Assembly: GCF_003334315.1 (NCBI RefSeq)
Contig: NZ_QOWR01000014.1
Source of the DNA: Escherichia coli
Lineage (GTDB): Bacteria > Pseudomonadota > Gammaproteobacteria > Enterobacterales > Enterobacteriaceae
Length of the DNA: 64,000 nucleotides
Reading direction: 5' to 3' (one strand)
How positions within the stretch are numbered: the stretch's first letter is position 1; each line of letters starts with the position of its first letter. Shown here piece after piece: positions 22,585 through 24,801 of this stretch. A model generated the notes under the pieces. The model was not told where the DNA came from. It saw nothing but the letters and a program-made list of their open reading frames with translations, and did no database searches. Position numbers and translations under genes: made by a program.

Positions 22585-22874
22585 CATGACCTCTATATAT
22601 TTATCTCCGGCGGTCATACCCGTCGTCTTTCAGGCCGCAGCGGCGTTAGCTTCACGCCCTCACCCCAGTCACTTACTTATGTAAGCTCCTGGGGATTCTG
22701 GCGCTTGCTACCTTGCTGCACCCAGAAATCCATAGGGTATGTGAAGTAATACCCTAACCACCACCGGGTCGTTCTATCCGTCGGTATTTTACAAAATTGT
22801 TAACAATTTTTAAACAACAAACGGCAACCGATTTGTCTATTCGCTAATAACCTCAATACATTCATGAGATTACC

Positions 22875-22902
22875 AGAAAAAAGCCGGCCGTTGGGCCGGC
22901 TC
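22875..22902 (-). terminator. rho-independent terminator after aceF
   Basis: Stem agccggcc/gccggct with loop gttgg; U-run follows on the minus strand. Confidence 0.75.
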
Positions 22903-22908
22903 TTTTAC

Positions 22909-24801
22909 TTACATCACCAGACGGCGAATGTCAGACAGCGTGTTGTTAATGATGGTAATGAAACGGGCACCATCAGCACCGTCGATCACGCGGTGGTCGA
23001 AGGAGAGAGAAATCGGCAGCATCAGACGCGGCACGAACTCTTTACCATTCCACACCGGCTCCATCGCGGACTTGGAAACGCCGAGGATAGCCACTTCCGG
23101 CGCGTTCACAATCGGCGCGAAGTGGGTAGTACCCAGGCCGCCGATGCTGGAGATGGTGAAGCAACCGCCCTGCATTTCGCCCGCAGTCAGCTTACCGTCA
23201 CGCGCTTTCTTAGAAATAGTCATCAGCTCGCGAGACAGCTCGATGATGCCTTTCTTGTTGACGTCTTTGAATACCGGAACAACCAGACCGTTCGGGGTAT
23301 CCACCGCCACACCGATGTTGATGTATTTCTTCAGGGTCAGACGCTGACCGTCTTCCGACAACGAACTGTTGAAGCGAGGCATCTGCTCAAGAGCTGCAGC
23401 AACGGCTTTCATGATGAAGACAACCGGGGTGATCTTCACATCCAGCTTACGTTTCGCCGCTTCTTCGTTCTGCTGTTTACGGAACGCTTCCAGCTCGGTG
23501 ATATCGGTTTTGTCGAAGTGAGTAACATGCGGGATCATCACCCAGTTACGGCTCAGGTTCGCACCAGAAATTTTCTGGATACGGCCCAGTTCCACTTCTT
23601 CGATTTCACCAAACTTGCTGAAGTCCACCTTCGGCCACGGCAGCATGCCTGGGATACCGCCGCCAGTCGCCGCCGGAGCTGCTTCTGCACGTTTGATAGC
23701 TTCTTTCACGTAAGCCTGAACGTCTTCGCGCAGGATACGACCTTTACGGCCAGTGCCCTTCACTTTCGCCAGGTTAACGCCAAACTCGCGTGCCAGACGG
23801 CGGATCAGCGGAGTCGCGTGAACGTAAGCGTCGTTTTCTGCAAATTCAGATTTGCCTTCCGCTTTCGCAGCCGGTGCTGCTGCCGGAGCTTCAGCTTTTG
23901 CTGCCGGAGCCGGCGCTGCCGCTTCCTGTTTCGCAGGAGCTGCCGCAGGTGCTGCGCCTTCAACTTCGAAGATCATAATCAGCGAGCCAGTTTTCACTTT
24001 ATCGCCAACGTTGACTTTCAGTTCCTTCACGACGCCTGCAAACGGAGCCGGAACTTCCATAGACGCTTTATCGCCTTCTACGGTGATCAGTGACTGTTCA
24101 GCGGCAACTTTGTCGCCCACTTTCACCATCACTTCGGTCACTTCAACTTCGTCACCGCCGATATCCGGAACGTTAACTTCTTTCACGCCAGCCGCTGGTG
24201 CAGGGGCCGCTGCCGGAGCCGCTTCCTGTTTAGCCGCCGGAGCTGCCGCGCCTGCTTCACCCGCGACTTCGAAGACCATAATCAGCGAGCCGGTAGACAC
24301 TTTGTCACCCACGTTCACTTTGATCTCTTTCACGGTGCCAGCAAACGGAGCCGGAACTTCCATAGAAGCCTTGTCGCCTTCTACGGTGATCAGCGACTGT
24401 TCAGCTTCAACTTTATCGCCAACTTTCACCAGGATTTCGGTCACTTCAACTTCGTCGCTGCCGATATCCGGAACGTTAACGTCTTTTGCCGCGGCAGCCG
24501 CTGGTGCTGCTGCCGGAGCTGCTTCTTTCTTCTCTTCTGCCTGAGCAGGTGCAGCGTCTGCTGCACCGTCGGCGGAATCGAAAATCATAATCAGTGCGCC
24601 GGTCTGGGTTTTATCGCCAACAGAGACTTTGATCTCTTTAACGATACCCGCCTGCGGAGACGGAACTTCCATAGAGGCTTTGTCGCCTTCTACGGTGATC
24701 AGCGACTGTTCGGCTTCAACTTTGTCGCCCACTTTGACCAGGATCTCGGTGATTTCAACTTCATCAGCCCCGATGTCCGGTACTTTGATTTCGATAGCCA
24801 T
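22909..24801 (-). CDS. aceF: pyruvate dehydrogenase E2, dihydrolipoamide acetyltransferase
   Basis: 630-aa ORF with three lipoyl domains and Ala/Pro-rich linkers. Confidence 0.97.
23956..24801 (-). repeat. internal ~309-bp triplication encoding the three lipoyl domains of AceF
   Basis: Near-identical stretches (gtcgccttctacggtgatcagcgactgttcagcttcaactttatcgcc...) recur three times in the 5' third of aceF. Confidence 0.8.

What the first reader, a model, noticed from the sequence alone, without database searches (positions are those of the whole stretch)
22864..24801. aceF lipoyl-domain triplication and stop-free antisense frames
The 5' third of aceF is three roughly 309-bp near-identical repeats, a substrate for recombinational gain or loss of lipoyl domains. 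The opposite strand carries 409-aa and 230-aa ORFs that are Ala/Ser/Thr/Pro-rich mirror images of the linkers. Similar long antisense ORFs overlie aceE (757 aa), acnB, secA, ftsZ and lpd. I regard these as compositional artefacts of codon bias rather than genes, but the repeat architecture is real.
Basis: seen in the sequence. Interest (0 to 1): 0.2.

Follow-up and report, generated by a model that had tools for sequence, protein, structure and literature searches.

The report
aceF lipoyl repeats, spurious antisense ORFs
This is the textbook E. coli pyruvate dehydrogenase E2 gene (aceF) with its three tandem lipoyl-domain repeats, and the long open reading frames on the opposite strand are an expected by-product of the gene's codon and amino-acid usage, not hidden genes.

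Summary
The window is E. coli. aceF lies at 22909-24801 on the minus strand (630 aa, NCBIfam NF008814, 1101 bits) in the pdhR-aceE-aceF-lpd operon.

**Repeats.** They are real: units of 309, 303 and 303 bp, TRF score 903. They are 73-83 % identical, not near-identical. They fill the 5' 48 % of the gene, not a third.

**Antisense ORFs.** All the stated ORFs exist: 409 and 230 aa on aceF, 757 aa on aceE, plus acnB, lpd, secA and ftsZ. None of the aceF ones is longer than in synonymous-codon shuffles of the sense gene (p = 0.90 and 1.0). The same holds in 77 Enterobacterales orthologs.
- The 409-aa frame is open because aceF has a single TTA/CTA/TCA codon.
- The 230-aa frame is open because residues 1-320 contain no Tyr or His.
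- There is no Shine-Dalgarno sequence, no + strand promoter-like site, no family match and no literature record.

**Recombination.** This idea is supported, but events are rare. All 77 complete orthologs, each from a different Enterobacterales species, carry three lipoyl domains. Neither hybrid-domain probe found a four-domain allele among 5,424 complete E. coli genomes. Rare natural four-domain alleles (exact 303/309-bp tandem duplications) do occur in draft E. coli assemblies and two Salmonella chromosomes. One E. coli genome has a 192-bp out-of-register deletion.

**Verdict.** Already known, low interest.

The parts
22909..24801 (-). aceF, dihydrolipoyllysine-residue acetyltransferase (E2p), 630 aa
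   Evidence: ORF. RefSeq annotation of a 100 % identical stretch. NCBIfam NF008814 scores 1101.5 bits against a cut-off of 722.
24493..24801 (-). Repeat unit U1: lipoyl domain 1 (lipoyl-Lys41) plus Ala/Pro linker, 309 bp
   Evidence: It is 73 % nt identical to U2 and U3.
24190..24492 (-). Repeat unit U2: lipoyl domain 2 (Lys144) plus linker, 303 bp
   Evidence: It is 82.5 % nt identical to U3.
23887..24189 (-). Repeat unit U3: lipoyl domain 3 (Lys245) plus start of the third linker, 303 bp
22864..24093 (+). 409-aa antisense ORF in the codon-aligned frame; not a gene
   Evidence: It is ended by the single TCA codon of aceF (Ser237; antisense TGA at 24091). Shuffle p = 0.90. No SD upstream and no NCBIfam hit. 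A GC-rich hairpin at 22882-22901 sits in its first codons.
23852..24544 (+). 230-aa antisense ORF in the frame shifted by one base; TTG start, no ATG codon at all; not a gene
   Evidence: Stops in this frame need Tyr, His or Gln codons preceded by a codon ending in a pyrimidine (T before His/Gln, T or C before Tyr). Residues 1-320 have 0 Tyr, 0 His and 8 Gln. Shuffle p = 1.0.
24957..27230 (+). 757-aa antisense ORF over aceE in the codon-aligned frame; not a gene
   Evidence: aceE has only 2 TTA/CTA/TCA codons in 888. The run of 804 codons has p = 0.013, and about 1.6 results at p <= 0.01 are expected among 162 gene-frame tests.
24107..24120 (-). GTGGGCGACAAAGT (VGDKV) site in the N-terminal half of domain 3; one end of the 192-bp deletion in E. 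coli strain 463
24299..24312 (-). GTGGGTGACAAAGT (VGDKV) site in the C-terminal half of domain 2; the other end of the strain 463 deletion

Best explanation
**What the region is.** It is the ordinary E. coli aceF gene. Its 5' half encodes three tandem copies of a lipoyl domain plus an Ala/Pro-rich linker. These act as swinging arms that carry acetyl groups between the E1, E2 and E3 active sites of the pyruvate dehydrogenase complex. The copies arose by ancient tandem duplication. Since then they have diverged mainly at synonymous sites, to 73-83 % nucleotide identity.

**Recombination.** Short identical tracts of 20-53 nt, depending on strain, still allow rare unequal crossing-over. This adds or removes a whole unit in frame.

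**Antisense ORFs.** The long ORFs on the opposite strand are not genes.
- In the codon-aligned antisense frame, a stop can arise only opposite a sense TTA, CTA or TCA codon. Highly expressed genes such as aceF, aceE, lpd, acnB, secA and ftsZ almost lack these codons.
- In the frame shifted by one base, a stop needs a Tyr, His or Gln codon after a codon ending in a pyrimidine (T before His/Gln, T or C before Tyr). The lipoyl-linker region has no Tyr or His.
- Because the sense sequence is triplicated, absence of stops in one unit carries over to all three.
For: **Identity and context (shown)**
- NCBIfam equivalog NF008814 matches at 1101 bits.
- The operon pdhR-aceE-aceF-lpdA is annotated in a genome that is 100 % identical over the aceF region.
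- Three EGDKA lipoyl-lysine motifs are present at K41, K144 and K245, together with the DHRVIDG catalytic motif.

**Repeat statistics (shown)**

**Antisense ORFs explained by the sense gene (shown)**
- Synonymous shuffles in the window and in 77 orthologs.
- The position and codon context of every antisense stop.
- Correlation with TTA/CTA/TCA density, rho = -0.68.
- No promoter-like site on the + strand in 22500-24900.
- No SD-like sequence at a functional distance from any of the starts. The 230-aa ORF contains no ATG.
- No NCBIfam hit for any of the three antisense products.
- aceF/aceE are not named in the E. coli antisense-ORF or retapamulin Ribo-seq papers held in the library.

**Unequal crossing-over**
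- Shown at sequence level: four-domain alleles with exact 303- or 309-bp tandem duplications. The self-identical block starts at gene nt 91, which is the 32-nt tract shared by U1 and U2.
- Each allele carries its own strain-specific substitutions in both copies, so the events were independent.
- Inferred: the mechanism, RecA-dependent or slippage.
Against: - No expression data could be examined, so antisense transcription or low-level translation is not excluded.
- The aceE antisense run is nominally longer than its shuffles (p = 0.013), although that is within multiple-testing expectation.
- The four-domain E. coli alleles come only from draft or metagenome assemblies. None of 5,424 complete genomes carries either hybrid junction, so an assembly artefact cannot be fully ruled out for them. 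Two complete Salmonella chromosomes do carry four-domain alleles.
Confidence: 0.95

Rival explanations
1. One or more of the long antisense ORFs (409 aa, 230 aa, or 757 aa over aceE) is a real overlapping protein-coding gene, of the kind proposed for pop/ompA or ano in EHEC.
For: - The ORFs are very long relative to a random-sequence null.
- The aceE antisense run has p = 0.013 against synonymous shuffles.
- Translated antisense ORFs have been reported in E. coli (PMC7103648, PMC9927249, bioRxiv 10.1101/2020.11.18.388249).
Against: - The ORFs are not longer than expected once the sense protein and codon usage are fixed, in E. coli and in 77 orthologs.
- In the +1 frame, orthologs carry slightly more stops than their shuffles (median 5 against 4.0).
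- There is no SD, no + strand promoter-like site, and no ATG in the 230-aa ORF. A GC hairpin sits in the first codons of the 409-aa ORF.
- None of the products matches a protein family.
- They are absent from the candidate lists that could be searched.
Confidence: 0.02
2. The stop-free antisense frames are maintained by selection for a non-coding reason. Examples would be avoiding antisense stop-like trinucleotides for mRNA structure, or an antisense RNA regulating aceF.
For: None found that is specific to this region. Antisense transcription is widespread in E. coli (reviewed in PMC7457138).
Against: The shuffle tests show no excess openness that would need explaining. No promoter-like site is present on the + strand.
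Confidence: 0.02
3. The three-unit architecture is effectively frozen. The four-domain and deletion alleles seen in databases are assembly errors, so the repeats are not a live recombination substrate.
For: - Neither hybrid-domain probe matched any of the 5,424 complete E. coli genomes.
- All 77 complete orthologs, each from a different Enterobacterales species, have three lipoyl-lysine motifs.
- Several ENA four-domain proteins look like cross-species chimeras.
- The exact shared tracts are short, at 20-32 nt.
Against: - The same four-domain protein occurs in independent assemblies and samples with different SNP backgrounds.
- The duplicated blocks are exact and start at the shared identical tract.
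- Four-domain alleles sit in two complete Salmonella chromosomes.
- De Bruijn assemblers tend to collapse tandem repeats, not expand them (general knowledge).
- Lipoyl-domain loss is documented in Serratia symbiotica (PMC5013485).
Confidence: 0.15

Closest known systems
E. coli K-12 AceF (E2p of the pyruvate dehydrogenase complex), with its three lipoyl domains, PSBD and catalytic domain
   Same: It has the same gene, the same length (630 aa) and the same operon. It has three lipoyl domains reported as 73 % identical at protein level (PMC8421416); my pairwise values are 72-86 %. In the protein database, clusters shown as 100 % identical (rounded) are named as this enzyme from E. coli.
   Different: There is no functional difference. 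The window differs from the nearest complete genome found (strain 13C1065T) at 170 of 64,000 positions, and at none within aceF.
Engineered aceF alleles with 1, 2 or up to 9 lipoyl domains (Guest et al. 1985 J Mol Biol 185:743, cited in PMC5013485; Machado, Clark & Guest 1992, from my own knowledge)
   Same: The number of repeat units can be changed in frame, and one domain is sufficient for activity (PMC5013485).
   Different: Those alleles were made in vitro. The four-domain alleles found here are in natural isolates. They exceed the 'one to three' range quoted for E2 (PMC10849603).
Long 'shadow' ORFs antisense to highly expressed genes (codon-aligned frame, stops only opposite TTA/CTA/TCA)
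   Same: The mechanism and frame are the same, as is the association with strongly codon-biased genes.
   Different: The 230-aa ORF lies in a different frame. It owes its openness to the Tyr/His-free, triplicated lipoyl-linker sequence, not to codon bias.
Proposed antisense overlapping genes of E. coli O157:H7 (pop/ompA, ano, asa, laoB)
   Same: These are also ORFs embedded antisense in an annotated gene.
   Different: Those candidates rest on RNA-seq or Ribo-seq signal, promoters and phenotypes. None of that is available or indicated here, and the aceF/aceE ORFs are not in the searchable candidate tables.

Membership tests
AceF / PDH E2p (NCBIfam NF008814, TIGR01348) | Full-length match above the curated cut-off | tested here: met
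   NF008814 scores 1101.5 bits (cut-off 722) over residues 1-630. TIGR01348 scores 1041.6 bits (cut-off 552).
AceF / PDH E2p | N-terminal lipoyl domains carrying the lipoylated lysine in a DKA motif | tested here: met
   Three EGDKA motifs are present at K41, K144 and K245. PF00364 is recorded for database proteins shown as 100 % identical (rounded).
AceF / PDH E2p | Peripheral subunit-binding domain and 2-oxoacid dehydrogenase acyltransferase domain with the DHRxxDG active-site motif | tested here: met
   PF02817 and PF00198 are recorded for database proteins shown as 100 % identical (rounded). '[12 protein letters not shown]' is present in the translation.
AceF / PDH E2p | Genomic context pdhR-aceE-aceF-lpd | tested here: met
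   The RefSeq annotation of the collinear stretch shows this order.
AceF / PDH E2p | Acetyltransferase activity and lipoylation | not testable with these tools
   Established experimentally for the E. coli enzyme (PMC8421416, PMC10849603).
Antisense overlapping protein-coding gene | ORF longer than expected given the sense protein and its codon usage | tested here: not met
   p = 0.90 for the 409-aa frame and 1.0 for the 230-aa frame. In 77 orthologs the fraction with p < 0.05 is 0.05 and 0.00.
Antisense overlapping protein-coding gene | Own promoter and ribosome-binding site | tested here: not met
   No + strand sigma-70-like site is found in 22500-24900. No SD lies at a functional distance from any start. 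The 230-aa ORF starts with TTG and contains no ATG. These are consensus scans only.
Antisense overlapping protein-coding gene | Evidence of translation (Ribo-seq, initiation profiling, peptides) | not testable with these tools
   No data are accessible. aceF/aceE are not mentioned in the relevant papers or held supplements.
Tandem repeat subject to unequal crossing-over | Head-to-tail units with identical tracts at or above about 20-30 nt, the minimal efficient processing segment for RecA recombination in E. coli (from my own knowledge) | tested here: met
   Exact shared runs are 32 nt (U1/U2), 26 nt (U2/U3) and 20 nt (U1/U3). This meets the threshold only marginally.
Tandem repeat subject to unequal crossing-over | Natural recombinant alleles differing by whole units, with junctions in the identical tracts | tested here: met
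   Exact 309-bp and 303-bp duplications are found in E. coli assemblies. Periods of 282 and 297 bp are found in two Salmonella chromosomes. Frequency is very low: neither hybrid-domain probe matched any of 5,424 complete E. coli genomes.

The most novel reading that the evidence does not exclude
One of the long antisense frames is translated into a protein from an as yet unmapped antisense transcript. The best candidate is the 757-aa frame over aceE, the only one nominally longer than its synonymous-shuffle expectation (p = 0.013). Another is the 409-aa frame, which starts in the aceF-lpd intergenic region. This would make the PDH operon a site of extensive antisense overlapping coding.
Probability: 0.02. 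Interest if true: 0.6.

Novelty: already known. Interest (0 to 1): 0.1.

Why it matters
As a finding it matters little. The triplicated lipoyl domains of E. coli AceF have been known since the gene was sequenced in 1983. Stop-free antisense frames over codon-biased genes are a known trap for ORF-based annotation. Three points are still useful:

1. **A clean null test.** A synonymous-codon shuffle test shows that these particular ORFs need no explanation beyond the sense gene.
2. **Two separate causes.** Rarity of TTA/CTA/TCA codons explains the codon-aligned frame. A Tyr/His-free, triplicated protein sequence explains the shifted frame.
3. **A small by-product.** Natural four-lipoyl-domain AceF alleles appear in wild E. 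coli and Salmonella. That is above the 'one to three' usually quoted, and it shows the repeat is still an occasional recombination substrate.

Tried and rejected
- **Coverage as a copy-number test.** I used BLAST coverage of the 915-bp repeat region to count copy-number variants in 5,426 E. coli genomes. This failed as a discriminator, because two parts of the query can align to the same subject unit. Strain 463 still showed 88 % coverage. I could only sample 60 evenly spaced ranks and bound the number of aberrant records at 13 or fewer (identity below 95 %).
- **Apparent two-domain loci.** The genome-contig loci L007 (E. albertii) and L083 (Dickeya) looked two-domain, but they are simply truncated at the locus start, so I discarded them.
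- **Two-domain alleles in the protein database.** I could not look for these. The listing is ranked by bit score and shows only the top 120, which favours four-domain proteins.
- **Supplementary tables.** The bioRxiv versions of Weaver et al. 2019 and Meydan et al. 2019 have no supplements held as text. The Zehentner et al. supplements have no aceF, aceE, lpd, acnB, ftsZ or secA entry and no Z0124-Z0126 tag.
- **aceF in a chemostat-evolution paper.** PMC4350175 mentions aceF alleles, but not lipoyl-domain duplications.
- **Third antisense frame.** The third antisense frame of aceF shows p < 0.05 in 13 % of orthologs. I considered this a possible signal and rejected it. The runs are short (about 50-118 codons), the species are not independent, and it is not a frame the finding refers to.
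Full report
**What is there**

The window is Escherichia coli. It is collinear with NZ_CP019259.1 (strain 13C1065T) positions 4198281-4262280, with 170 mismatches in 64,000 bases and none in the region of the finding. The annotated genes around the finding are acnB, yacH, lpdA, aceF (22909-24801, minus strand), aceE and pdhR. The 630-aa product matches the NCBIfam equivalog for the PDH-complex dihydrolipoyllysine-residue acetyltransferase over its full length (NF008814, 1101.5 bits, cut-off 722). So the finding concerns the textbook aceF gene.

**The repeats**

The repeat finder returns a three-member family with spacings of 303 and 309 bp. TRF returns a period-303 array of 2.7 copies, 80 % matches, score 903.

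In protein register the units are:
- U1: residues 1-103, window 24493-24801, 309 bp.
- U2: residues 104-204, window 24190-24492, 303 bp.
- U3: residues 205-305, window 23887-24189, 303 bp.

Each unit is a lipoyl domain with an EGDKA lipoyl-lysine motif (K41, K144, K245) followed by an Ala/Pro-rich linker.

Pairwise nucleotide identity is 73.3 %, 72.9 % and 82.5 %. Amino-acid identity is 76 %, 72 % and 86 %. Most differences fall at third codon positions. The longest exact runs shared by two units are 32 nt (U1/U2), 20 nt (U1/U3) and 26 nt (U2/U3).

The repeats are therefore real and far beyond chance. They are old and diverged, not 'near-identical'. They occupy 915 of 1893 nt (48 %), not a third. 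The literature gives the same picture: three lipoyl domains, 73 % identical (PMC8421416), and E2 proteins with one to three lipoyl domains (PMC10849603).

**The antisense ORFs exist**

- aceF: 22864-24093 (409 aa) and 23852-24544 (230 aa).
- aceE: 24957-27230 (757 aa).
- acnB: 17298-18410 (370 aa).
- lpd: 21133-21990 (285 aa).
- secA: 39692-40822 and 41108-41857 (376 and 249 aa).
- ftsZ: 44049-45230 (393 aa).

Under a base-composition null a stop is expected every 24 codons. A run of 394 codons then has probability of about 5e-8, so these ORFs are not 'chance' in that naive sense.

One descriptive point is wrong. Only the 230-aa ORF is Ala/Ser/Thr/Pro-rich (64 %). The 409-aa ORF is Arg/Phe-rich (ASTP 21 %) and lies mostly opposite the catalytic domain.

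**Why the antisense ORFs are open**

The right null keeps the sense protein and its codon usage and permutes synonymous codons.

For aceF:
- The codon-aligned antisense frame has a 394-codon run against a shuffle mean of about 500 (p = 0.90).
- The frame shifted by one base has 238 codons against about 313 (p = 1.0).

For the other listed genes in the codon-aligned frame:
- acnB: p = 0.16.
- lpdA: p = 0.66.
- secA: p = 0.18.
- ftsZ: p = 1.0.
- aceE: p = 0.013.

Two results at p <= 0.01 occur among the 162 gene-frame tests, where 1.6 are expected.

The mechanics are visible directly:
- In the codon-aligned frame an antisense stop can lie only opposite a sense TTA, CTA or TCA. aceF has one such codon in 631 (TCA, Ser237, which is exactly the stop that ends the 409-aa ORF at 24091-24093). 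aceE has two and ftsZ none.
- In the shifted frame every one of the seven stops lies opposite a Tyr, His or Gln codon preceded by a T-ending codon. Residues 1-320 of AceF contain no Tyr, no His and eight Gln, of which only one (Gln87) follows a T-ending codon. That stop is the one that terminates the 230-aa ORF.
- Because the sense sequence is triplicated, freedom from stops in one unit propagates to all three.

Across the 54 annotated genes of the window, the open fraction of the codon-aligned antisense frame correlates with TTA/CTA/TCA density (Spearman rho = -0.68, p = 2e-8). Apart from the short panD gene, the six genes with the lowest density are ftsZ, aceF, aceE, lpdA, acnB and secA.

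**Independent checks for a hidden gene**

- In 77 complete aceF orthologs from different Enterobacterales species, the antisense runs in the two relevant frames are no longer than in shuffles. Median p is 0.54 and 0.74, and the fraction with p < 0.05 is 0.05 and 0.00. In the shifted frame the real genes have slightly more stops than their shuffles (median 5 against 4.0).
- There is no sigma-70-like site on the + strand between 22500 and 24900. The only hits are on the minus strand, in the aceF-lpd intergenic region upstream of lpd.
- None of the antisense starts has a Shine-Dalgarno-like sequence at a functional distance. The 230-aa ORF starts with TTG and has no ATG codon at all.
- A GC-rich hairpin (22882-22901), just downstream of the aceF stop, lies within the first 13 codons of the 409-aa ORF.
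- The three antisense products match no NCBIfam model.
- aceF and aceE are not named in the E. coli antisense-ORF and initiation-profiling papers in the library. The held supplements of the largest candidate list contain no entry for these genes.
- Expression data themselves could not be examined.

**Copy number across strains and species**

All but two of 5,426 complete E. coli genomes carry the repeat region. One of the two is an engineered strain that retains only the last 141 bases of the query.

Among 60 records sampled evenly down the ranking:
- 57 have the same span as the window.
- One has +9 bp (three extra Ala in linker 1).
- One has -12 bp in linker 3.
- A -12-bp allele was also seen.
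- The lowest-ranked record, strain 463, has a 192-bp in-frame deletion.

The strain 463 deletion is out of register. It joins two GTGGGYGACAAAGT (VGDKV) sites, one in the C-terminal half of domain 2 and one in the N-terminal half of domain 3. It thus exploits the internal pseudo-repeat of the lipoyl fold, not the 303-bp unit.

All 77 complete orthologs, each from a different Enterobacterales species, have three lipoyl-lysine motifs, with lengths of 622-670 aa that vary through linker indels. This set is biased towards full-length matches. Loss of one or two domains is documented in Serratia symbiotica endosymbionts. In vitro deletion showed that one domain suffices (PMC5013485, citing Guest et al. 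1985).

**Four-domain alleles (by-product)**

The protein-database search ranks by score and therefore surfaced longer proteins first. Of the top 42, 37 have four lipoyl-lysine motifs.

Clean E. coli cases:
- P0001 (733 aa) has the order U1, a U2N/U1C hybrid, U2, U3. It occurs in two NCBI assemblies.
- P0003, P0011, P0012 and P0014 (731 or 727 aa) have the order U1, U2, a U3N/U2C hybrid, U3. P0003 occurs on five contigs from several samples.

At DNA level these are exact tandem duplications of 309 or 303 bp. The self-identical block in one P0001 locus begins at gene nt 91, which is the start of the 32-nt tract shared by U1 and U2. P0011, P0012 and P0014 each carry their own strain-specific substitutions in both copies, so the duplications arose independently and recently.

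Two complete Salmonella chromosomes (CP075029.1 and CP006575.1) also carry four-domain alleles, with periods of 282 and 297 bp.

Probes spanning the two hybrid domains found no match better than 95.4 % and 94.5 % in the 5,424 complete E. coli genomes. The alleles are therefore very rare, and for E. coli they are so far confined to draft or metagenome assemblies.

Several ENA four-domain proteins (P0002, P0010, P0015, P0025) contain a domain that looks like another genus. They are probably co-assembly chimeras.

I found no paper in the library that describes natural four-domain alleles.

**Verdict**

The object is the known aceF gene with its known triplicated lipoyl domains. The antisense ORFs are fully accounted for by the codon and amino-acid usage of the sense genes. 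Novelty is 'already known' and interest is low. The only mildly new items are the rare natural four-domain alleles and the out-of-register deletion. They confirm that the repeat is still an occasional recombination substrate.

Noticed in passing
L086, L088, L089, L090 (gene at 601-2796 or 601-2802); proteins P0001, P0003, P0011, P0012, P0014: These are natural E. coli aceF alleles with four lipoyl domains. They were made by exact 303-bp (U2/U3) or 309-bp (U1/U2) tandem duplications starting at the identical tracts shared by the units. Different alleles carry their own SNPs in both copies, so the events were independent. Neither hybrid junction was found in 5,424 complete E. coli genomes. This exceeds the 'one to three lipoyl domains' usually quoted for E2.
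   Followed up: partly
L091 (CP075029.1) and L092 (CP006575.1, S. Pullorum), gene at 301-2472 and 301-2478: Two complete Salmonella enterica chromosomes carry four-lipoyl-domain aceF (723 and 725 aa). The tandem periods are 282 bp (294-nt exact run) and 297 bp (173-nt exact run).
   Followed up: partly
L003 1303-3003 (E. coli strain 463, NZ_CP183105.1); window sites 24299-24312 and 24107-24120: A 192-bp in-frame, out-of-register deletion fuses the first two thirds of lipoyl domain 2 to the last two thirds of domain 3. It joins two 14-nt GTGGGYGACAAAGT (VGDKV) sites. The product is 566 aa. It is not known whether this reflects real biology or an assembly error.
   Followed up: partly
L004 and L005 (E. 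coli strains E8 and W444); P0118: These carry small in-frame indels confined to the Ala/Pro linkers: +9 bp (AAA) in linker 1, -12 bp (AAPA) in linker 3, and -1 Ala. They are consistent with slippage in the short GCN/CCN repeats (family D2).
   Followed up: partly
Proteins P0035 (680 aa), P0032 (707 aa), P0038 (668 aa): These are other in-frame partial duplications in database AceF sequences. P0035 and P0032 duplicate the peripheral subunit-binding domain, and P0032 looks chimeric between species. P0038 has a 38-aa duplication inside lipoyl domain 2.
   Followed up: no
window 22882-22901: A perfect 8-bp GC-rich hairpin (AGCCGGCC-GTTG-GGCCGGCT) lies 8 nt downstream of the aceF stop codon, in the aceF-lpd intergenic region. 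It is terminator-like on either strand, and the minus-strand promoter-like sites at 22814-22786 lie just beyond it, upstream of lpd.
   Followed up: no
window 19332-21089 (yacH, + strand): The YacH product (DUF3300) contains a His/Asp tract (DDDDHDHHHHDDDDYHHHDGGH). Near its C terminus it has three roughly 30-aa repeats built around QSASPEQRQ. A 153-aa ORF in another frame of the same strand (20041-20502) reads through the His/Asp tract as a run of Ile/Thr/Met.
   Followed up: no
window 24957-27230 (antisense to aceE): The codon-aligned antisense frame of aceE is open for 804 of 888 codons. Both of its TTA/CTA/TCA codons lie near the gene ends, which gives p = 0.013 against synonymous shuffles. 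This is within multiple-testing expectation, but it is the only listed ORF that is nominally longer than expected.
   Followed up: partly
L009, L015, L016, L020, L026, L029, L034, L046, L054, L055 (aceF orthologs): In the third antisense frame, which is not one of the frames in the finding, 13 % of 77 orthologs have a stop-free run of about 77-118 codons that is longer than in their synonymous shuffles (p < 0.05). The species are related, so these are not independent observations.
   Followed up: no
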